64,000 nt of DNA from Patescibacteria group bacterium (GTDB lineage Bacteria; Patescibacteriota; JAQUNI01), in NCBI GenBank assembly GCA_028717685.1, contig JAQUNI010000004.1:8599-72598 (forward strand). Direction: 5' to 3'. The position numbers and the translations under genes were made by a program. This document shows positions 35,744 through 47,074 of this stretch, one piece after another. Positions within the stretch are counted from its first letter, which is position 1. Every line of letters begins with the position of its first letter. The notes beneath the pieces were generated by a model, which saw only the letters and a list, made by a program, of their open reading frames with translations, was not told where the DNA came from and ran no database searches.

Positions 35744-36052
35744 CTACTTTATCATTACTAAAAGCATTTTAAATCTTTTTAGCGCTTTTAAGGAATGGGG
35801 TTTATGGGCAGGAAGTTTAATTATTTGCCCTTCAATAAGCGTGTATGCTGTTTTTTCAATTTTAATTTGCGCTTCACCGTCTATAATATAAGCCAGCACA
35901 TTAAACGGGGCTGTGTGTTCGCTTAGCCCTTGACCTGCGCCAAAAGCAAAAATTGTTACTGTGCCATTTTTTGTTTTTAAAATTTCTTTGCTCACTACCG
36001 AACCTTGTTGATATTCAATATGTTCTTTCAATGTGATTATTTCTTTTTGCAT
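35744..36052 (-). CDS. Cupin-domain protein
   Basis: 102 aa. 'GQGLSEHTAPFNVLAYIIDGEA' cupin motif. Confidence 0.55.
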   Translation of the reverse strand: MQKEIITLKEHIEYQQGSVVSKEILKTKNGTVTIFAFGAGQGLSEHTAPFNVLAYIIDGEAQIKIEKTAYTLIEGQIIKLPAHKPHSLKALKRFKMLLVMIK

Positions 36053-36082
36053 AATTTTTTTACAATTTTCTTATTGGGTAAT

Positions 36083-36400
36083 TTAAAAAAGTTTGGTGTT
36101 ATAAATCTCGCCAATATTGAGCGACTTAAATAAATCATCATTCAAGATTTTTTCTATTTTGGCCAACAATGTTTTATCATTAGAACTTATTAGTTGGGAT
36201 ACTTCTTTGCTTTGGTTGTCTATAGCATATATTTTCAGACTATCCGTGTTTAATTCGGCCTTTTCTAAAAATATTTTATTCAAACCAGTTTCAAACTTGT
36301 CCATATCCGAGAAACCTCCTCCAAAGCTATTAGAAAAATTTATAAGTCCTGCACGTTTTAAATCATATAAAGTTTTTGTTTTAGAAGATTGTAATTCCAT
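36083..36400 (-). CDS. Hypothetical protein (105 aa), first gene of the AT-rich island
   Basis: ORF only. Lys/Asn/Ile-rich composition. Confidence 0.3.
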   Translation of the reverse strand: MELQSSKTKTLYDLKRAGLINFSNSFGGGFSDMDKFETGLNKIFLEKAELNTDSLKIYAIDNQSKEVSQLISSNDKTLLAKIEKILNDDLFKSLNIGEIYNTKLF

Positions 36401-36472
36401 ATTTTTTAAGCTCTTTGAGCCGATCTATAATTGGTTGTTCGACCAATGAATTTTCGTTAATTTTAATCATAT

Positions 36473-37732
36473 TTATACCAATTCTAGTTCATCTTTATTC
36501 GGAGGAATAAATCCCTTTGGCAAATCTTTTAGAATATTTAAATGACTATAAATTCTATACCTTATTACTTGTGGTATTCTATGCCATTTTTCATAAAGTA
36601 GGTCATTTTCTTTAATATATTCTAAATAAAAGCTCTCAAAAATTTTCTTAAATTTTTTTTCACCTAAAAAAGAAATAGCAACTAATTCGGCTATTCCAGC
36701 CGTAAAAAAACATATTGTATAAAGGTTTCTTTCCAAAAATAAAAGCAATCCACCTTGCTTTAATTTGGCGAGAGTCTCAATTCCCTGATAATTACTCCAA
36801 ACTCTAAATTTATACAAAATATCTAGAATGGTAAAGATATCTTTATTATTTGCTTTTGAAAAAAAAGTTCTTTTAAGATCATTACGATATTCATTTTCTA
36901 ATTGATATATATTTTTATTGCCTCTCGGACATTGAGCATATTTAAACCGCCACTCTCTTTTATTAATATCTAAAAAACTTTTTTTGATCAATCCTTTTTT
37001 ATAACAAATATTAAATGGAAATTTTAATATTATTTTTGAATATTTAGATAGCTGATGTCTATTAAAATATATCGATGACTTTCTATGTTCTTCGGTTTTT
37101 AAGCTTGGATTCTCGGTGAAAACAAAGGAAGTAAAATAAGAATAAATAGAATAATAATATTTGATGATTTTCCAAGAAGGAAATAATGAAATTCCAGCAT
37201 CATCATCTATATAATCCAAACTACTGCCAATATTAAAATCCTGTGAAAAGGGATAACCTCCTGCTATTTCATTATACCAGCCTTGCATTAAATGAAACTT
37301 AAATTTAGTCTCTGAAAAATTTTTACCGACTAAAACATTTTTAAATTTTAAATGATTATAATCCAAATCTTTAATAAATAATTGATATAATGTGTCGATT
37401 TTATATCTTCTGCTTTTCATCATTTCACGATCAGCAAATCTCATTTTCAACATCCAAGCAAATCTATCTACAATATCATGATATGATAGATATCCTTCCA
37501 ATTCTGGGTGATATTCATATAAGAAGTGTTTCGGTCCACTTAATATTTCTTTTTGGTATTCTTTATTTGACGAAAGAAGGTTTAATCTCGGGTATTGATA
37601 TGTAGGGATTAAATATCTTTTATCCTTCCCTAATGTATAATCTAATAAATCTGATTTTATTAGTTGTTTTAAATAGCTTTCTTTAAGATTAAATTTCTCG
37701 GAAATAAATTTTAACGTTTTTAGTTCTGTCAT
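36473..37732 (-). CDS. Hypothetical protein (419 aa) with an N-terminal excisionase/AlpA-like helix-turn-helix
   Basis: N-terminal 'LKFISEKFNLKESYLKQLIKSDLLDYTLGKDKRYLI' resembles HTH_17/Xis DNA-binding domains. The rest is uncharacterized. Very AT-rich codon usage. Confidence 0.4.
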   Translation of the reverse strand: MTELKTLKFISEKFNLKESYLKQLIKSDLLDYTLGKDKRYLIPTYQYPRLNLLSSNKEYQKEILSGPKHFLYEYHPELEGYLSYHDIVDRFAWMLKMRFADREMMKSRRYKIDTLYQLFIKDLDYNHLKFKNVLVGKNFSETKFKFHLMQGWYNEIAGGYPFSQDFNIGSSLDYIDDDAGISLFPSWKIIKYYYSIYSYFTSFVFTENPSLKTEEHRKSSIYFNRHQLSKYSKIILKFPFNICYKKGLIKKSFLDINKREWRFKYAQCPRGNKNIYQLENEYRNDLKRTFFSKANNKDIFTILDILYKFRVWSNYQGIETLAKLKQGGLLLFLERNLYTICFFTAGIAELVAISFLGEKKFKKIFESFYLEYIKENDLLYEKWHRIPQVIRYRIYSHLNILKDLPKGFIPPNKDELELV

Positions 37733-37866
37733 TTAAATAAAATGTCTTAGGGATTAACTTTATTTTTTTCACTCATTAACTTTGGTAAAAGTAGATCGCA
37801 AAGAAATGATAGAGTTTATCCGCCGCCGCCGAATTTCGCGCCAGCAAAAATGGCGTGTTGCCAGGA

Positions 37867-38307
37867 TTATTTTTTATAAACAACAAAATAAGGCAACTTA
37901 TCTAACCCAATATAATTAAACATCCAAAGTTCTCGGCCTGATTTTTTTATTGTAGTAAATCTTTTTCTCAAATTTACTTTTGGAATGAATGGATAAAATC
38001 TAATTTCTTGGCGTTTACCACCTTGCCCGTTCCATTTGAAATTTACTATTAATGGTGGGGTAATAAATCCTGATTTCAAAACTTTATCAATAATTTCCCA
38101 TCCCGCTCCAAAGATGATGGACTTTGGTTTGCATAGGTTTGTTTTTATTTGAGCGCGAAACGAACAAGCTGTACATTGCACGTCGTACAGAGGGTAGCTC
38201 TCCGGCAATAACATCAATTTTTTCTTACAATTTGGGCAAGATACTAAATTGACAACCTCCTGCTCTCCAAGATTGCCAGCATATTTGTTTCCGTGATTAT
38301 TTTTCAT
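37867..38307 (-). CDS. Small Zn-ribbon protein (about 147 aa), possible nuclease or accessory component of the R-M island
   Basis: 'CPNCKKK...CTAC' ribbon followed by 'DVQ...AQIK'. Immediately downstream of the beta-class methyltransferase. Start chosen at the MKNNHG Met to avoid a 50-nt overlap. Confidence 0.3.
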   Translation of the reverse strand: MKNNHGNKYAGNLGEQEVVNLVSCPNCKKKLMLLPESYPLYDVQCTACSFRAQIKTNLCKPKSIIFGAGWEIIDKVLKSGFITPPLIVNFKWNGQGGKRQEIRFYPFIPKVNLRKRFTTIKKSGRELWMFNYIGLDKLPYFVVYKK

Positions 38308-38311
38308 AATT

Positions 38312-39088
38312 CTATGTAATAGTTTCCATCCTATGTTTAGCCATTTTAGAATACTTGGCATTTTTTTCTATCCCTATCCACTTTCTGCCTAATTTTTTTG
38401 CAACTACAGCTGTGGTGCCGCTACCTAAAAATGGGTCTAAAACCAGATCGCCTTTATTTGAGGACGCAACGATGATCCTTTTTAGCATCTCTTCCGGTTT
38501 CTGTGTTGGGTGTAATGCTCTACCATCCTTTCCATGTAATCTTTCTTTTCCTTGTACTAAAGGCAATGACCAAACATCCCTCATTTGTTTGAGTGCCCCA
38601 TTTTTCTGTGTTTCAGGGTTTATTTTTTTTAATTCGACATAGTTAAAAATCCATTTTTTACCCTTAACCGCCCAAACGACAAATTCTGTTGAGTGAGTAA
38701 AAACTCTTTTTGTCATATTGGGCATCGCGTTTGTTTTTTGCCAAACAATGACATTATTAATTTTGAAATCGAACTGTTTCAGTACAATGATCACCTCTGC
38801 AAGATTGTGGTAGGTGCAAGAAATATAGATTGAGCCATTATCTTTCAATATTTTGTGGCAAGCACCAATCCATTTTTTCGTAAACTGTATATATTCTGGG
38901 GCGGTCATTTTATCCCATTCTTCGTTCACCATATACCAATCACCGCCAGTTTTATTTCCTTCCCATTTAAGACCATTGCCCGAAAGATTGTAGGGCGGAT
39001 CGGCAAAAATCAACTCAACTGACTTTTTATCAATTTTTTCATTCAATATTTTTATGCAATCGTCAGTGTAAATAGTGTTGAGCTTCAT
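38312..39088 (-). CDS. DNA methyltransferase, beta-class (N6-adenine or N4-cytosine)
   Basis: Motif IV 'FADPPYN' precedes motif I 'DPFLGSGTT' (beta permutation). Start [11 protein letters not shown]. Confidence 0.7.
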
Positions 39089-39090
39089 AA

Positions 39091-40923
39091 TTATTGCTTT
39101 GCTAAAATAGATTTTTGCCATTCAGTAATTGTTTCCGGTATTTGCTCAATCCACTTCTCGGAATGAGCAACACGATTCGTTAGACTGAGGATTTGTTCAT
39201 AAAGATTTAATAACTCATCGTGCGTAAATCGTTTTCCTTGTTTTCTGATTTCTAAAAGACTTTCAAGTAGTCTGACAAATTGCGCAATAGAGAGGGGAAC
39301 AATTTTTTGTGCAGTTCCTTTATAGCCGTATTTTATCGCCATCCAAAATGTCTCAACGGTATCTTGATGTAGTCGTGGAGCAATGAATAGGCAATAAGCT
39401 GTCTTGTCGGTATGGGATTCTTCAAAGTCGCGCACATGACGCATAACAGGTTGTCCCTCGTTGTACCACTGTGAACGATTCGTCAGCATTGTAACCTCGC
39501 ATACGGAATTAAACTGTTCATAAAAGCATTCTATATCCGGCTTATTGGCTGGCGCAGTAAAAGTAGGCTCGTTGTCATCTCCAACCGGATAGTTTGGTTT
39601 AATCTCTAGTGCGTCGTTAAGAGCGTTGAGTGCAAGCGTTGAGAGCCTTTCAAGTTCAATACTCTTTTTATTGTCTGACTGATAAATACCCCTAAGTGCG
39701 TTAATATATTCTTGAATTTTAGCGACATCTTGCGATTCAAAATGAGTTTCAAGCTCTTGTAGTTTTCTACGGTAACCTCGCAATTGCTCGATATACTCTT
39801 TTAGTTGATCCTCAATTAAGCTCTCAATCTTTTTAAAATGAAAGGGCGGTGCTGTTATTATTTTTGATTTCAGATCGATTACATATTCTTGCACATCCCG
39901 ACTCAATTTTTCTGCAATTTTTCCTAACTCCGATTTTGTTTCCCACGGCAAAACAGGTTGCTCAATATCGGCAAGATATTCTATGTATTTGTCGGCATTT
40001 TCGTATGCTAGAGGAGCGGCATTATCCGTAGAGAGTAATTTATCAATCTCGATAGACCTTCTTGGTTCCAAATTAACATAAAACCCGCCGCCCCGAATAT
40101 GTAGATATCTGGTTAATCTGAAATATCGAATCGCGTTGTCGCCATAATCCTTAAGGTTGTTAAGAAGTTTTTTAATTTCACTGCCTTTGTTTGTTCTTAA
40201 AAATGTTTTGGAAAAATTATTTCCAAACTTTTTTTTAAATTGCTTTCTTCTCTTGTCGTCTTTTTGTGAACGCAGCCCAACTCGATATTCAATTAGTTTT
40301 TCCGCTTGCTTTTTGATATTTTTGTAATCTATAAGCGTTGGTGCAAATAAAGAGAATTCATCTTTACTTATTCCGATAGGGTTATTTCCTAATTTTACCC
40401 ATCTCTTGTTCACTTCGTTTATAAGATGTAATGCTCCTATAAATGGTTTGATAGCAAATCCGTCATTTTCTGAAAATGTTGTACTTGCTGGGTTAGGAAG
40501 TTGCCATTTCAAAAAGTGTATAAAGAACAATTTACCCAAATCATAATTTTCAGAAAGAAGATATTCGCCTAGTGGGGTAATCTTAACGCCTTCGACTGAA
40601 TTTTTGGCTATACACAAACCCATTTTATTAAGTGGCGCAACAGAATTTCTGCCACGCATTGCCGGATCTTCGTAACCTTGTACATTAAAAATTTCTTTTG
40701 CAACAGAAAATGGCATTTCTGTTTCAATATCATCAAAATATTCTTGTTGTTCTCTGGTTAAATTAGTTGGTTTGTAAAACCTATTTTGAATGAGGAGAAT
40801 TTGGTATTTAATTTGATTCTCTGAATTAAAGGGTTGTCCCTCTAGTTCTTTCAGAACGCGCAAGAAATCCCGTAATCTATCGGGGTTTCTCACTGTTGTT
40901 GATATTGACCAAGGTTTTTTCAT
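39091..40923 (-). CDS. Putative Type IIS restriction endonuclease, AlwI/Nt.BstNBI family
   Basis: 610 aa. N-terminus '[23 protein letters not shown]' follows the W-x-V/I-S...R-x-P-E/D pattern I recall for the Nt.BstNBI/AlwI N-terminal region. Flanked by two methyltransferases in the same orientation. Confidence 0.5.
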
Positions 40924-40928
40924 AATTG

Positions 40929-42743
40929 TTATTTTATTACTTTACAATAAAAGATTCGTTCTGTGTGTCCATCAGTATCGCTTTTGCCTGTTGTAAATGC
41001 TTTATAATCCCTTTCAAAAATATCAACATTGCCACGAGTTTTTAATATATTTATAATTCGCTTATCACTAATGCGAGCATTTGATCTTCCGTCCTTAGAT
41101 TCGCCGGTGTTATTATAAGAAACCAAAATATGTTTACAGTTTGCGTTCGAAATTAAATCAGCAAATGCCCTCGATGCTGACTGTAGACAGTAATCACTTT
41201 TAATATGTGACCTATCCATCTTTTTTGCTTTGCCATACACTGATGGTTTTTCCCAAGTAGCAAGGTTTTCTAGAAGGTGATAGGCGTCAGAATACTGGCG
41301 AGAATTATAAGGTGGATCAATATATAAAACGTCACACCTTATTTTTTTGATAAGCTGATTTGCGTCTTTTTTATATATTTCATTATTTGAGTTATTTTCT
41401 GGCTCAAAATCCGGAACCAAAAGACGTAGTGGTTGGATTGTGTCTAGTTTTTTTCTGTATGCATCATAGTGGCCAACTGTATTTGCCACCTTATCAACTG
41501 CGTATAGTAATGTAGTAATCAAAACAGCTCTCTCATTATCGCTTTTTGCAATCTCGTCAATTTTTTCTCTGACAGCGCCGATTTTGCGAGCGTTCTCTAA
41601 GGTGAAAAAGGTATTGCCGAAATGTTCAGAAAAATAATTGTCATTGTGCACTTCTAAGTTATTGAGCAGCTCTATTTTCTTTTCTATTTCCTTAAAATCA
41701 ATTTTCGAAGTTCCCAAAAAAGATTTTAATGGTAGATAATTACTTACTAAAAAGTCGTTGGCAATAACTTTTATATCTTTTTCATTAAATCGTTCACCAA
41801 CAACACCAGTACCCGCAAAAATATCACAGAACACACCGAAGCCGTTGCATTTTTCGTTGACAATATCCTCAATAAGACCGAGCAGTTTATATTTATTTCC
41901 TAAAAATCTTCTATTTTGCAGCTGGAAACGCCCCGACTTAATTCTACTTTCAGGGTAAAAATATACCTTATGTATTTTTTTTATTTCTGGGGTATAAGTT
42001 GGTTGTGCAGTTTCTAATAGATCGAAAAGGGAATTTTGTACACCATCAGAAATATAATGCGTTACTTTACTATCCGAGCTTTGTATTTCAGAAAAAAAAC
42101 TGTGAGTGTCATTTTCACTAACAATAATAAAATCAATAACATTCACACCCATTATTTTACCTGCTTCGAGAATTTTATTCACGACTTCCATATCTTGTTT
42201 ACTGGGGGTAACATCTCCTGATGGGTGATTATGTAACAAAATGATCCCAGCCGCTCGTAACTCGACGGCGGGGCCAAAAATTTCTCGTGGATGAATAATG
42301 CTTTTATCTAATATACCGATAGATATAATTTCTTTTTTCAGTAGCGCATTTCTTGCGTTGAGATATAGACATACCAAATACTCTTTTTTCTTGTCTCGTA
42401 TGTCGGAAGTTAAAGAAATCGCATCTTGGGCGGATAAAACAATGTTATCTTTTGGTTCCAATTCTTCATAAAATCTTTTTATTAACGCCAGAGCAGAAAC
42501 AATTTGTAGGGCTTTTGCCTCTCCAATTCCAGAAATTTTCAAAAGATCATCAACTATTATGTCTAAAAATTTATTTCCGAATTTTCTGATTATCTGTTCG
42601 GAAAGTTGTTTAACATTTTTTCCCTTAATTCCGCTTCCAATAAGAATAGCCAAAAGCTCGCTTTTAGAAAGAGCATCTGGACCTTTTTCTAAAAACCTTT
42701 CGCGTGGCCTATTAATTTTTGGAATGTCTTTAAGCTTTCCCAT
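40929..42743 (-). CDS. Fusion protein: RadC-like JAB/MPN domain (N-terminal) plus Dam-like alpha-class N6-adenine DNA methyltransferase (C-terminal)
   Basis: RadC N-terminal HhH 'ELLAILIGSGIKG' and JAB motif 'IILLHNHPSGD'. Then Dam-family motifs 'FLGNKYKLL', 'FCDIFAGTG', 'VLYIDPPYN'. Confidence 0.7.
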   Translation of the reverse strand: MGKLKDIPKINRPRERFLEKGPDALSKSELLAILIGSGIKGKNVKQLSEQIIRKFGNKFLDIIVDDLLKISGIGEAKALQIVSALALIKRFYEELEPKDNIVLSAQDAISLTSDIRDKKKEYLVCLYLNARNALLKKEIISIGILDKSIIHPREIFGPAVELRAAGIILLHNHPSGDVTPSKQDMEVVNKILEAGKIMGVNVIDFIIVSENDTHSFFSEIQSSDSKVTHYISDGVQNSLFDLLETAQPTYTPEIKKIHKVYFYPESRIKSGRFQLQNRRFLGNKYKLLGLIEDIVNEKCNGFGVFCDIFAGTGVVGERFNEKDIKVIANDFLVSNYLPLKSFLGTSKIDFKEIEKKIELLNNLEVHNDNYFSEHFGNTFFTLENARKIGAVREKIDEIAKSDNERAVLITTLLYAVDKVANTVGHYDAYRKKLDTIQPLRLLVPDFEPENNSNNEIYKKDANQLIKKIRCDVLYIDPPYNSRQYSDAYHLLENLATWEKPSVYGKAKKMDRSHIKSDYCLQSASRAFADLISNANCKHILVSYNNTGESKDGRSNARISDKRIINILKTRGNVDIFERDYKAFTTGKSDTDGHTERIFYCKVIK

Positions 42744-42769: not shown

Positions 42770-42915
42770 GCCCTGTAGTGAGACTTCAGTCCCGAGGAAC
42801 ATTCAGTCCCGAGGGATTCTCTACTACGGGGCAAGAGCCCTCCTACGCTCTTTGGGCTACGGAGTATTTTTCTCCCACCCCCTCCATCTCCCCCTCGGGC
42901 AGGGGGAGTGTAATT
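42770..42915. repeat. MITE family A copy with a tandem ttcagtcccgagg duplication in the left arm
   Basis: ccctgtagtgagacttcagtcccgaggaacattcagtcccgaggg...ctcccaccccctccatctccccctcgggcagggggagtgtaattc. Confidence 0.6.
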
Positions 42916-43118
42916 CATCTTATAATTTCGGCACTTCGTCCCTTCTTCGTCGCTTCGCTCCTTAAGAGTTCCTCAGTGTCTTTAATTTTCATCTAACTAT
43001 ATAGTAGGTGGTCAAAGATAATACCCTTCTACTTCGCTACGCTCAGTATCAGGGACTTCTTCTTTTTTATATAGAGCCGGAGGCACTGATGAGCCTCCGT
43101 CTCAAAGGAGGCGAAGAA

Positions 43119-43132
43119 GTGCTGGGGAGGCA
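43119..43132. repeat. 14-nt exact direct repeat of the tRNA-Gln 3' end (att-like site)
   Basis: gctggggaggcagg is identical to 43505-43518, i.e. tRNA positions 61-74 in reverse complement. Brackets the GIY-YIG gene. Confidence 0.55.
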
Positions 43133-43177
43133 GGTGTCCTTCGCCTGCGGCTTCGGAGCACCTAATTACCTCCAAAA

Positions 43178-43438
43178 CTATTCCTTCTTCAAGGCTTCGG
43201 GAATAAGTCTTTTATATGTAAATGCTTTACCTGAACCAGTTTTTAAATATTTTTCAAACAACTTTGCCTTTTTAATTGTTGAAAATCCACAATACCAAAC
43301 AAGTTGCCAAGGAATAAAAGGTTTAGTTGATTTAGATAAGCCTTGGTTGTGTTCAGTATATCTTTTTTTGAGATTGTTTGTATAGCCAAAATAAAGCTTT
43401 TTTGATTTTAGACTATAAAGAATATAGCAATAATACAT
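43178..43438 (-). CDS. GIY-YIG nuclease domain protein (YhbQ/UPF0213-like)
   Basis: 'YYCYILYS...LYFGYTNNLKKRYTEHN' GIY-YIG motifs, 86 aa. Confidence 0.7.
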   Translation of the reverse strand: MYYCYILYSLKSKKLYFGYTNNLKKRYTEHNQGLSKSTKPFIPWQLVWYCGFSTIKKAKLFEKYLKTGSGKAFTYKRLIPEALKKE

Positions 43439-43502
43439 ATTTGCCTCTTATTAAACTTTATCAGATTTGAGGCGTAAGCCATTCCGAAGCCTTGGCGAAG
43501 GA

Positions 43503-43576
43503 TGGCTGGGGAGGCAGGATTCGGACCTGCGATGATAGGTTCAGAGCCTATTGCCTTACCGCTTGGCTACTCCCCA
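43503..43576 (-). tRNA. tRNA-Gln (anticodon CUG), CCA encoded
   Basis: UGGGGAG acceptor pairs with CUCCCCA. D-loop AGCGGUAA. Anticodon loop CUCUGAA. T-arm GCAGG-UCCGAAU-CCUGC. G73-CCA. Architecture matches E. coli tRNA-Gln. Confidence 0.85.
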
Positions 43577-45648: not shown

Positions 45649-45717
45649 GAATTACGATGACTATTCTCCCTCCCCCTCCACCTCCCCCTCGGGCAGGGGG
45701 AGTGAGTTTCCTAATTC
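45649..45717. repeat. Compact MITE family A copy (69 bp) occupying the prfB-ftsE spacer
   Basis: gaattacgatgactattctccctccccctccacctccccctcgggcagggggagtgagtttcctaattc. Its right end overlaps the prfB TAG stop. Confidence 0.65.
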
Positions 45718-46881: not shown

Positions 46882-47074
46882 AATTACGAAATTCATTTTT
46901 GTCTATTAGCGAGGAATTCTCCTCCCCTTGACCTGCGGGAGGTTTGGGAGGGGTCTAATAGATGAATATTCTCCCTCCCCCTCCCCGCCCGCCTCGCCTG
47001 AAGCGAAGCGATGGCGGGCAGGCATCTCCCCCTTCCGCCCAAGGCGGACAGGCAGGGCAGGGGGAGTGTAATCA
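46882..47074. repeat. MITE family A copy (full length, with the CGATGGCGGGCAGG module)
   Basis: aaattacgaaattcatttttgtctattagcgagg...ctccccttgacctgcggg...ccgcccgcctcgcctgaagcgaagcgatggcgggcagg...cagggggagtgtaatc. Confidence 0.65.

What the first reader, a model, noticed from the sequence alone, without database searches (positions are those of the whole stretch)
40929..42743. RadC-like JAB domain fused to a Dam-family N6-adenine methyltransferase
- The N-terminal 230 aa carry the RadC HhH and 'HNHPSGD' JAB/MPN metalloprotease motifs.
- The C-terminal 370 aa carry Dam motifs I (FxGxG) and IV (DPPY) in alpha-class order.
- RadC-like JAB domains are usually stand-alone and enriched on mobile elements.
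- A covalent fusion to an R-M methyltransferase is an unusual architecture and could link methylation to a second (peptidase/deubiquitinase-like) activity.
Basis: partly seen in the sequence, partly recalled or inferred. Interest (0 to 1): 0.6.

Follow-up and report, generated by a model that had tools for sequence, protein, structure and literature searches.

The report
RadC–methyltransferase fusion in restriction system
A real and widely conserved gene joins the enigmatic bacterial protein RadC to the first DNA methyltransferase of a mobile restriction-modification system, through a short linker motif that looks like a sliding-clamp docking site, which gives a new, testable handle on what RadC does.

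Summary
Window 40929-42743 (-) is one uninterrupted 604-aa ORF. It carries a complete RadC (HhH N-domain plus JAB domain with an intact JAMM motif) and a D12/alpha-class N6-adenine methyltransferase. It is not a chimera: more than 120 protein clusters from independent assemblies have the same full-length architecture.

The gene is the first in a tight operon: fusion, AlwI-family type IIS endonuclease, then a second (beta-class) methyltransferase.

RadC plus about 25 linker residues behaves as a portable module. Near-identical copies sit on a D12 methyltransferase only 43% identical, on C5 methyltransferases and on an N6_N4 methyltransferase. The partner endonucleases in these operons are unrelated to one another. 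The same R-M core also occurs without RadC, or with LexA or HTH domains in the same position.

The module ends in a nearly invariant Q-x-S-L-F-D. This matches the bacterial beta-clamp-binding consensus. Firmicute homologues carry QLxLF or QLSLP[IVN] at the same position.

Most likely reading: an R-M methyltransferase tethered to the replication clamp, carrying RadC as a catalytically intact accessory module. Clamp binding and RadC's chemistry are inferred, not shown.

I found no paper describing this architecture. I rate it a new variant of a known kind.

The parts
40929..42743 (-). RadC-D12 methyltransferase fusion gene (604 aa), first gene of the R-M operon
42510..42731 (-). RadC N-terminal domain (UPF0758_N, aa 5-78) with helix-hairpin-helix GIGEAKA
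   Evidence: Pfam 76.0 bits. G72, I73 and G74 are invariant. Weak Foldseek similarity (E 0.1-0.3) of this part to XPF/Hef HhH domains.
42093..42431 (-). RadC JAB/MPN domain (aa 105-217)
   Evidence: Pfam 119.1 bits. PDB 2QLC phmmer E 5e-25. Foldseek TM 0.90, rmsd 1.5 A to 2QLC.
42192..42233 (-). JAMM metal-binding/catalytic motif H171-N-H173-PSGDVTP-S181-KQ-D184 (with E154 upstream)
   Evidence: Read from the sequence. Invariant in 109 RadC sequences.
42015..42056 (-). Conserved linker motif Y230-ISDGV-Q236-NSLFD-LL243. The core QNSLFD lies at 42021-42038. Candidate beta-clamp-binding motif and 3' end of the portable RadC module.
41916..42014 (-). Variable, predicted disordered linker (aa 244-276)
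   Evidence: pLDDT below 50 in both models. Length and sequence vary in the alignment.
40932..41915 (-). D12-class (alpha) N6-adenine DNA methyltransferase domain (aa 277-604). Motif I FAGTG lies at 41805-41819 and motif IV DPPY at 41307-41318.
   Evidence: Pfam 110 bits. PADLOC MTase_II PDLC03373 394 bits over 3-337/339. Motif residues invariant.
39091..40923 (-). AlwI-family type IIS restriction or nicking endonuclease (610 aa). Its start codon lies 5 nt after the fusion gene's stop.
   Evidence: Pfam RE_AlwI 288.8 bits. N.BspD6I structures E 3e-31. PADLOC 'Type II nicking endonuclease' 489.9 bits.
38312..39121 (-). Second methyltransferase M2, beta-class N6_N4 (CcrM/HinfI-like), 269 aa. It overlaps the endonuclease gene by 31 nt.
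   Evidence: Pfam N6_N4_Mtase 216 bits. CcrM model 261 bits, below its cut-off. PADLOC PDLC03371 287 bits.

Best explanation
The ORF is the first methyltransferase (M1) of a horizontally mobile type IIS restriction-modification operon with the order M1, AlwI-family endonuclease, M2.

Its C-terminal D12 domain methylates adenine in one strand of an asymmetric site, and M2 covers the other strand. This split is inferred from how type IIS systems are built.

In front of the catalytic domain sits a self-contained portable unit. It consists of a complete, catalytically intact RadC (a non-specific HhH DNA-binding domain plus a JAB metallohydrolase) and a short tail ending in Q-x-S-L-F-D.

I propose that the tail is a beta-sliding-clamp-binding motif. 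It would dock the protein on clamps left on newly synthesised DNA, whether from replication, repair or recombination synthesis. Nascent unmethylated sites would then be modified before the cognate endonuclease sees them, in the way DNMT1 uses PCNA. RadC would be brought to the same DNA.

RadC is an optional accessory rather than part of the R-M core. It occupies the N-terminal position that homologues fill with HTH or LexA modules. It most likely senses or processes DNA or protein at these sites, or regulates the methyltransferase.

Shown here: the fusion, the operon, the modular exchange, and the conservation of the motif and of the catalytic residues. Inferred: clamp binding, strand assignment, and any RadC activity.
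For: Architecture and operon.

The cassette is conserved in different genomic neighbourhoods.

Modularity:
- L038, L024 and L025 have RadC 87-90% identical to the window, but the D12 domain is 43% identical and the endonuclease 25%.
- Identity between the window and L038 is mostly 80-100% up to about aa 230, still 75% across the motif, and falls to 25-50% from about aa 241.
- RadC 73-78% identical is fused to C5 methyltransferases in operons with an NgoFVII-like endonuclease and Vsr. Other fusions pair with HpaII RE and Vsr, MTaX1, or an N6_N4 MTase with an EcoRII-C endonuclease. A RadC-C5-D12 triple fusion also exists.
- RadC is absent from otherwise homologous cassettes in L028, L030 and L033. 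It is replaced by LexA+S24, by S24 alone, or by HTH_3 or HTH_17.

Motif:
- QxxLF is present in 119 of 122 RadC-D12 fusions, with position 2 free and Q, S/T, L and F fixed.
- The motif codons vary synonymously, so selection acts on the protein.
- It is present in most RadC-C5 fusions.
- L028, which lacks RadC, keeps QNSLF at its N-terminus. The stand-alone RadC P0406 keeps it in its C-terminal tail, about 20 residues before the end, in an operon with a PLD-family nuclease.
- LexA-MTase has QLPLF.
- 38 of 119 Firmicute homologues carry QLxLF or the hexapeptide QLSLP[IVN] within 45 residues upstream of the catalytic core, against about 0.001 expected per protein.
- The published consensus is QL[S/D]LF, or more generally QxxLF, and the tight-binding peptide is QLSLPL, with positions 1, 4 and 5 critical (PMC12309361).

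Structure: residues from about 246 onward are predicted disordered.

The JAMM residues are invariant.
Against: No binding data exist, and a complex with DnaN could not be modelled.

AlphaFold gives the motif region (aa 231-240) a moderate pLDDT of 72, with a small hairpin and a helical turn. It may therefore be partly structured rather than a free linear motif. The conserved stretch (Y..DG.Q.SLFDLL) is also longer than a minimal clamp-binding motif.

The motif is weak or absent in some fusions (P0172 QYGIS, P0219 QITLS) and in about two thirds of the Firmicute homologues.

Some loci are binned as archaea, which use PCNA rather than the beta clamp. Those contigs are short and may be misbinned.

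Ordinary stand-alone RadC proteins lack the tail, so the motif says little about RadC in general.

The recognition sequence is unknown. Neither GAGTC nor GGATC is avoided in the window.
Confidence: 0.55

Rival explanations
1. Regulatory or proteolytic switch. The RadC module acts like the HTH or LexA modules found in the same position in homologues. It binds DNA to control expression or activity of the R-M genes. Its JAB peptidase cuts the fusion at the conserved linker, or cuts another protein, in response to a signal. This would set the methylase-to-endonuclease ratio during establishment in a new host or under stress.
For: The module is positionally equivalent to LexA_DNA_bind+Peptidase_S24 (P0127, seen on three independent contigs), to S24 alone (P0171), to HTH_3 (P0169, P0186, P0161) and to HTH_17. 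LexA also combines a DNA-binding domain with a peptidase. The JAMM residues are invariant. The nearest structural neighbours after RadC itself are JAMM isopeptidases (PMC11981726). The conserved linker could be a cleavage site.
Against: HhH domains bind DNA without sequence specificity. No upstream DNA is shared between loci, so no common operator is visible. RadC was predicted to lack the groove that holds a ubiquitin-like tail (PMC5512222). The motif is kept when RadC and the MTase are separate proteins (L028; P0406), where a cis cleavage site would have no use. The Firmicute HTH versions carry clamp-type motifs, not a shared cleavage sequence.
Confidence: 0.2
2. Establishment or anti-defence accessory. 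The fusion is a minimal 'polyvalent' protein. RadC is carried because, as on conjugative elements, it helps incoming DNA survive or be processed in a naive host, while the methyltransferase protects DNA. The two activities are simply delivered together, without any mechanistic coupling at the clamp.
For: [quoted passage not shown] The cassette is mobile: neighbourhoods differ between loci, an integrase lies nearby in L001, and MAGs of many phyla carry it. The operons often sit beside other defence genes such as AAA_13, AAA_15/21 and Shedu SduA_C.
Against: No copy was found in 72,556 plasmids, 50,697 phage records or IMG/VR. The methyltransferases of polyvalent proteins are gamma-class and paired with SF2 helicases, unlike these. 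This reading does not explain the conserved linker motif.
Confidence: 0.15
3. Neutral accident. A housekeeping radC gene happened to fuse with a neighbouring methyltransferase gene, and the two halves work independently.
For: The RadC half passes the RadC equivalog model and looks like a normal full-length RadC. The R-M core works without it in related loci.
Against: The fusion recurs with three MTase classes and several endonuclease families. The module is exchanged as a unit with a sharp breakpoint, and is more conserved than its partners. The fused RadCs share a specific tail that ordinary RadCs lack. Flanking genes differ between loci, so RadC travels with the cassette.
Confidence: 0.05
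4. Artefact. An assembly chimera or an undetected frameshift joins two separate genes.
For: None found. Read-level data were not available.
Against: The reading frame is uninterrupted. More than 120 clusters from independent assemblies and four data sources share the same frame and length, as do 32 species-representative genomes.
Confidence: 0.01

Closest known systems
AlwI-family type IIS restriction-modification systems (AlwI, MlyI, PleI, N.BstNBI, BspD6I) with two methyltransferase activities
   Same: The endonuclease matches RE_AlwI at 288.8 bits and the N.BspD6I structures. Two adenine methyltransferases flank it in one operon. Cultured Firmicutes have the homologous D12 methyltransferase next to an AlwI-family endonuclease, for example Enterococcus plasmid pJHP9_3.
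   Different: In the characterised type, M1 is stand-alone, tandem D12-D12, or carries a small HTH. Here it carries a complete RadC. The recognition site of this system is unknown.
Stand-alone RadC / YicR (UPF0758; Pfam PF04002+PF20582; NCBIfam NF000642; PDB 2QLC)
   Same: Full HhH N-domain plus JAB domain, intact JAMM motif, 42% identity and TM 0.90 to 2QLC.
   Different: Ordinary RadC is about 220 aa and ends right after the JAB domain. This clade has a conserved Y..DG.Q.SLFDLL tail and a methyltransferase attached, and it sits in R-M operons.
[quoted passage not shown]
   Same: RadC again appears as an accessory domain on DNA-handling proteins of mobile or conflict systems (PMC3239186; PMC5512222; PMC11981726).
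   Different: None of these papers reports RadC on alpha-, beta- or C5-class methyltransferases inside classical type II R-M operons. The methyltransferases of polyvalent proteins are gamma-class with SF2 helicases.
Methyltransferases with N-terminal regulatory DNA-binding domains (SsoII-type HTH-MTases; from my own knowledge)
   Same: An extra DNA-binding module occupies the N-terminal position of an R-M methyltransferase. Homologues of this very family carry HTH_3, HTH_17 or LexA there.
   Different: RadC's HhH is non-specific, and it comes with a conserved metallohydrolase domain.
Beta-clamp-binding proteins (QL[SD]LF / QLSLPL motifs) and, by analogy, eukaryotic DNMT1-PCNA coupling (the latter from my own knowledge)
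   Same: The linker pentapeptide matches the consensus at the critical positions 1, 4 and 5 and at the preferred position 3. The pentapeptide and hexapeptide forms alternate among orthologues.
   Different: In my literature searches no bacterial DNA methyltransferase was reported to bind the clamp. Binding is untested here.

Membership tests
RadC family (PF04002 / NF000642) | JAB domain recognised by the family HMM above the curated threshold | tested here: met
   PF04002 119.1 bits (cut-off 22.1). NF000642 207.1 bits (cut-off 180). TIGR00608 191.2 bits (cut-off 133.85)..
RadC family (PF04002 / NF000642) | N-terminal UPF0758_N domain with a helix-hairpin-helix | tested here: met
   PF20582 76.0 bits at aa 5-78. 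The GIG motif is invariant..
RadC family (PF04002 / NF000642) | JAMM motif E...HxH(x7)S(x2)D intact | tested here: met
   E154, H171, H173, S181 and D184 are present and invariant in 109 sequences.
RadC family (PF04002 / NF000642) | Fold matches the solved RadC structure | tested here: met
   Model pLDDT 82.4. Foldseek against 2QLC gives TM 0.90, rmsd 1.5 A and 42% identity.
RadC family (PF04002 / NF000642) | Stand-alone protein of about 220 aa | tested here: not met
   The protein is 604 aa with a C-terminal methyltransferase. Ordinary RadCs end after the JAB domain.
D12-class (alpha) N6-adenine DNA methyltransferases (PF02086) | Family HMM match, with motif I (FxGxG) before motif IV (DPPY) | tested here: met
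   PF02086 110 bits. FAGTG at aa 309 and DPPY at aa 476, both invariant.
Dam (GATC) orthologues (TIGR00571) | Score above the Dam subfamily cut-off | tested here: not met
   23.9 bits against a cut-off of 114.85. The protein should not be called Dam.
AlwI-family type IIS R-M system | AlwI-family endonuclease adjacent to and co-oriented with methyltransferase gene(s) | tested here: met
   RE_AlwI 288.8 bits. The genes are 5 nt apart or overlapping. The order is conserved in more than 20 loci.
AlwI-family type IIS R-M system | Asymmetric recognition site, cleavage or nicking outside it, strand-specific methylation | not testable with these tools
   Word avoidance in the window was uninformative for GAGTC and GGATC. 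Methylome or enzyme data are needed.
Beta-sliding-clamp-binding proteins | QL[SD]LF / QxxLF or QLxLxL motif conserved at positions 1, 4 and 5 | tested here: met
   QNSLF at aa 236-240. 119 of 122 fusions carry QxxLF. Orthologues carry QLxLF or QLSLP[IVN]. Codons vary synonymously. Consensus taken from PMC12309361.
Beta-sliding-clamp-binding proteins | Motif lies in an accessible, flexible segment | tested here: inconclusive
   Residues from 246 onward have pLDDT below 50, but aa 231-240 has pLDDT 72 with a small hairpin and turn.
Beta-sliding-clamp-binding proteins | Physical binding to DnaN through the hydrophobic cleft | not testable with these tools
   Complex prediction and experiments were not available.
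Polyvalent proteins of phages and conjugative elements (Iyer et al. 2017) | Encoded on a phage or conjugative element, with the characteristic gamma-MTase/SF2 helicase dyad or LPD domains | tested here: not met
   No match covering the fusion in plasmid, phage or IMG/VR collections. The methyltransferases here are alpha, beta or C5 class, and no LPD or helicase domains are present.

The most novel reading that the evidence does not exclude
A portable 'RadC + clamp-binding tail' module recruits restriction-modification methyltransferases of several classes (D12, C5, N6_N4) to the beta sliding clamp. This would be a bacterial counterpart of DNMT1-PCNA coupling. It would also place RadC's long-unknown JAB activity on clamp-marked nascent or newly acquired DNA. 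RadC would then be a replisome- or clamp-associated enzyme rather than a repair protein, and R-M maintenance methylation would be physically coupled to DNA synthesis.
Probability: 0.3. Interest if true: 0.8.

Novelty: new variant of a known kind. Interest (0 to 1): 0.62.

Why it matters
RadC is one of the most widespread bacterial proteins with no known function. 'RadC, a misleading name?' dates from 2008, and a 2025 review still says its role and catalytic activity are unknown.

This analysis provides a defined, recurrent, selectable context for RadC. The protein travels as a unit with a short conserved tail and attaches to restriction-system methyltransferases whatever their chemistry or the partner endonuclease. 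That supplies simple genetic read-outs for RadC function, such as tolerance of the cognate endonuclease, methylation kinetics and establishment in a naive host.

If the tail is a clamp-binding motif, this would be the first indication I could find in the searched literature that bacterial R-M methyltransferases are tethered to the replication clamp. That would explain how hemimethylated or unmethylated nascent sites are protected in time.

There is also an annotation point. Pipelines currently name these proteins 'DNA repair protein RadC' and so hide an R-M methyltransferase.

Tried and rejected
- **Chimera or frameshift.** Rejected: no stops, and more than 120 independent full-length homologues.
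- **Inferring the recognition site from word avoidance.** GAGTC (30 observed, 39 expected) and GGATC (101 observed, 96 expected) are not avoided. The avoided words GGCC, TCGA, CATG and CTCAG point to other systems.
- **Full-length structure prediction.** The alignment was shallow and the model poor (pLDDT 62.9). It was used only for the disorder of the linker. A RadC-only model with a deeper alignment was good, but coordinates could not be inspected for contacts of the tail.
- **Shared promoter or operator upstream of the fusion gene.** No DNA similarity between loci. Promoter-like hits were not above shuffled expectation.
- **Fusion on plasmids, phages or viral contigs.** None found.
- **The 164-aa downstream ORF as a BspD6I-type small subunit.** No similarity to the endonuclease's catalytic domain, no PDB hit and no PADLOC hit. 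Only a sub-threshold DpnI match.
- **Linker conservation as a DNA-level recombination signal.** Rejected because the codons vary synonymously.
- **Literature.** Searches for RadC with methyltransferase, R-M or clamp, and for a clamp-binding motif with methyltransferase, found no description of this architecture.
- **A CPR DinB C-terminus (L004) as a local reference for clamp motifs.** It reads ...IPMDLFG..., which is compatible but not decisive.
Full report
**1. Observation**

Window 40929-42743 (minus strand) is a single ATG-initiated ORF of 604 codons without internal stops.
- Pfam finds UPF0758_N at aa 5-78 (76.0 bits), the RadC JAB domain at aa 105-217 (119.1 bits) and MethyltransfD12 at aa 280-542 (110 bits).
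- NCBIfam's RadC equivalog scores 207.1 bits against a cut-off of 180. The Dam model scores only 23.9 against 114.85. The N-terminal half is therefore a bona fide full-length RadC, and the C-terminal half is a D12/alpha-class adenine methyltransferase that is not a Dam orthologue.
- The JAMM residues are E154, H171, H173, S181 and D184. The methyltransferase motifs are FAGTG at aa 309 and DPPY at aa 476. All are invariant in 41 fusion homologues, and the JAMM residues are invariant in 109 diverse RadCs.
- A RadC-module model (pLDDT 82.4) superposes on the RadC crystal structure 2QLC with TM 0.90 and rmsd 1.5 A.

**2. The fusion is not an artefact**

The 120 best database clusters are all full length (about 600-623 aa) with all three domains, at 74-92% identity. 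They come from NCBI, JGI, ENA and Logan assemblies. A scan of one genome per GTDB species found 32 loci. The exact protein is GenBank MDD5627356.1, annotated 'DNA repair protein RadC', from a Patescibacteria MAG.

**3. Context**

The gene heads a tightly packed operon.
- An AlwI-family endonuclease lies at 39091-40923, starting 5 nt after the fusion's stop. It scores RE_AlwI 288.8 bits, E 3e-31 to N.BspD6I structures, and 490 bits to a PADLOC 'Type II nicking endonuclease' profile.
- A beta-class N6_N4 methyltransferase lies at 38312-39121. It is CcrM/HinfI-like and scores 216 bits.

The three-gene order is conserved in more than 20 loci with different flanking genes. One sits beside an integrase, and several sit beside AAA_13 genes. 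This is a mobile type IIS R-M cassette.

MAG labels for the loci include many Patescibacteria, plus Omnitrophota (a 303-kb contig), Planctomycetia, Atribacterota, Clostridia and Brocadiaceae. Two archaeal bins also appear, on short contigs. Some of these labels may be binning errors, but the spread indicates horizontal transfer.

No copy occurs in PLSDB plasmids, INPHARED phages or IMG/VR.

**4. RadC is a portable, optional module**

Three lines of evidence support this.

(a) Same R-M core, different N-terminus.
- L028, L030 and L033 have the methyltransferase (56-77% identity), endonuclease and M2 without RadC.
- L005-L007 have LexA_DNA_bind plus Peptidase_S24 fused in RadC's place. This is seen on three contigs, and a full DpnI gene follows M2 there.
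- Other family members carry Peptidase_S24 alone, HTH_3, or HTH_17 in Firmicutes.

(b) Same RadC, different partners.
- L024, L025 and L038 have RadC 87-90% identical to the window. Their D12 domain is only 43% identical and their shorter AlwI-type endonuclease 25%, and a second D12 gene lies in between.
- A sliding comparison of the window with L038 shows mostly 80-100% identity to about aa 230. Identity is still 75% across the motif and then drops to 25-50% from about aa 241.
- RadC 73-78% identical is fused to C5 cytosine methyltransferases in operons with an NgoFVII-like endonuclease and Vsr.
- More distant RadC-C5 fusions pair with HpaII endonuclease plus Vsr, or with MTaX1.
- A RadC-N6_N4 fusion pairs with an EcoRII-C endonuclease, on a 151-kb contig of what appears from its gene content to be a Gram-negative (diderm) bacterium.
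- A RadC-C5-D12 triple fusion also exists.

(c) Unfused RadC in the same setting. One stand-alone RadC that keeps the tail (P0406, 264 aa) is the first gene of an operon with a PLD-family nuclease and an N6_N4 fragment.

RadC is thus associated with R-M methyltransferases whatever their chemistry or the endonuclease. It is more conserved than its partners, and it is dispensable for the R-M core.

**5. The linker motif**

Beyond the JAB domain, ordinary RadCs stop. The fused RadCs continue with Y-[IV]-[SA]-[DE]-G-x-Q-x-[ST]-L-F-D-L-L. In the window this is aa 230-243, with the core QNSLFD at 42021-42038. A linker of variable length and sequence follows, predicted disordered.

Conservation:
- QxxLF occurs in 119 of 122 RadC-D12 fusions. 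Q, S/T, L and F are fixed, and position 2 is free, with N, T, H, Y, L, A, S, V and other residues seen.
- The codons vary synonymously (CAA/CAG, four Ser codons, four Leu codons), so the constraint is on the peptide.
- The motif is also in most RadC-C5 fusions: QSSLFD, QASLFD, QKSLFD, QFSLLD.
- It marks the recombination breakpoint of the module.

The motif is also found outside RadC fusions.
- LexA-MTase has QLPLF. RadC-less L028 starts ...YVKQNSLFN. Some stand-alone homologues start MSAAQLALF or MNINNYQQLSLFDE.
- In 119 Firmicute homologues, 38 carry QL[KESQN]LF or the hexapeptide QLSLP[IVN] within 45 residues upstream of the catalytic core. From the rest of the same proteins, about 0.001 per protein is expected.

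These are the two published forms of the bacterial beta-clamp-binding motif. They are QL[S/D]LF, or more generally QxxLF with positions 1, 4 and 5 critical, and the tight-binding hexapeptide QLSLPL (PMC12309361).

The hypothesis rests on four features: the pattern of which positions are fixed, the interchange of pentapeptide and hexapeptide forms among orthologues, the variable distance to the catalytic core, and retention of the motif whether RadC and the methyltransferase are fused or separate.

Caveats:
- AlphaFold gives aa 231-240 a pLDDT of 72 with a small hairpin and turn.
- The conserved stretch is longer than a minimal motif.
- Two thirds of the Firmicute homologues lack the motif.
- Nothing was measured.

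**6. Mechanism proposed**

Each step below is marked as shown here or inferred.

Shown here:
- M1-R-M2 is a type IIS R-M operon.
- M1 carries a catalytically conserved RadC and a conserved linker peptide, which together form an exchangeable module.

Inferred:
- M1 and M2 each modify one strand of an asymmetric site.
- The linker peptide docks on the beta clamp. Methylation would then track DNA synthesis and protect nascent sites from the cognate endonuclease.
- RadC's HhH and JAB activities are delivered to the same DNA.

What RadC does there remains open.
- Its positional equivalence with LexA and HTH modules suggests a regulatory or proteolytic-switch role. This is the main rival, at 0.2.
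- Its occurrence on conjugative-element proteins suggests an establishment or anti-defence role (PMC3239186; PMC5512222). I put this at 0.15.
- A 2025 review confirms that RadC's function and catalytic activity are still unknown. It also notes that RadC-DinG helicases resemble YoaA (PMC11981726), a helicase the review describes as HolC-associated.

**7. Comparison with known systems, and novelty**

The R-M core is a known kind, the AlwI/BspD6I family. PADLOC profiles exist for a stand-alone 339-aa M1, a 260-aa M2 and the endonuclease.

RadC fusions to ArdC, primase and DinG, and RadC in polyvalent proteins, are described. RadC on alpha-, beta- or C5-class methyltransferases within classical type II R-M operons is not described in the papers I read. 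The methyltransferases of polyvalent proteins are gamma-class with SF2 helicases.

My literature searches found no report of this fusion or of a clamp-binding motif on a bacterial methyltransferase. The library is incomplete, so absence is not proof. The sequences themselves are public but are mis-named 'DNA repair protein RadC'.

I classify the finding as a new variant of a known kind.

**8. Verdict**

Its interpretation is partly supported. The finding is more interesting than a one-off fusion. It shows a recurrent RadC-plus-tail module serving R-M methyltransferases, with a concrete and cheaply testable clamp-tethering hypothesis. Interest: 0.62.

Noticed in passing
window 37867-38361 (-): A 164-aa ORF overlaps the 3' end of M2 by 50 nt. 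It has a CxxC...CxxC pattern and a sub-threshold DpnI/'Dam-replacing' match (22.9 bits against a cut-off of 26.7), and 28% identity over 71 aa to the full-length DpnI that follows M2 in the LexA-MTase cassette L005. It has no PDB or PADLOC hit, is absent from the other loci, and is not a BspD6I-type small subunit. It may be a truncated or divergent methyl-directed nuclease.
   Followed up: partly
window 43110-43576: An 86-aa GIY-YIG gene (43178-43438, minus strand, 61.5 bits) lies between two direct copies of a 25-nt sequence (43110-43134 and 43494-43518, 88% identical). The second copy overlaps the 3' end of tRNA-Gln(CTG) at 43503-43576. This looks like a small element inserted at the tRNA 3' end with target duplication, immediately upstream of the R-M operon.
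   Followed up: partly
window 42862-42910, 45656-45704, 46961-46996: An intergenic repeat of about 45 nt, C-rich on the + strand (G-rich on the minus strand), contains the hairpin CTCCCCCTCGGGCAGGGGGAG. It occurs three times within 4 kb. One copy lies in the 434-bp spacer upstream of the fusion gene. It could be a REP-like element or a terminator.
   Followed up: no
whole window: Several short words are strongly avoided: GGCC (observed/expected 0.20), TCGA (0.34), CATG (0.40) and CTCAG/CTGAG (0.17). This suggests other active restriction systems in this genome. GAGTC and GGATC, the sites of characterised AlwI-family enzymes, are not avoided.
   Followed up: partly
window 36000-38000: A low-GC stretch (0.27, against about 0.40 elsewhere) lies directly downstream of the R-M operon. 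It includes a 419-aa ORF (36473-37732, minus strand) and a 105-aa ORF with no Pfam or PADLOC hit. This is probably more island cargo of unknown function.
   Followed up: partly
L005:3121-8282 (also L006, L007): A LexA (wHTH + S24 peptidase) is fused to the same D12 methyltransferase and followed by an AlwI-family endonuclease, M2 and a full-length DpnI. The result is an R-M cassette with an SOS-repressor module and a methyl-directed nuclease. The fusion's linker carries QLPLF.
   Followed up: partly
L040:1612-4422: A triple fusion RadC - C5 cytosine methyltransferase - D12 adenine methyltransferase of more than 936 aa, running off the contig end.
   Followed up: partly
L034, L020, L022, L023 versus window: The cassette is mosaic. 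The two methyltransferases stay 69-85% identical to the window's, while the endonuclease between them drops to 52-55%. This suggests exchange or faster evolution of the endonuclease gene.
   Followed up: no
L044:4812-6914 (Enterococcus faecium plasmid pJHP9_3) and homologues: Tandem D12-D12 methyltransferases of Firmicute AlwI-type systems have the arrangement HTH_17, then EQL[EK]LF, then catalytic domain. HTH-less relatives begin MNINNYQQLSLFDE. These are candidate clamp-binding motifs in cultured, tractable organisms, which would make good experimental models.
   Followed up: partly
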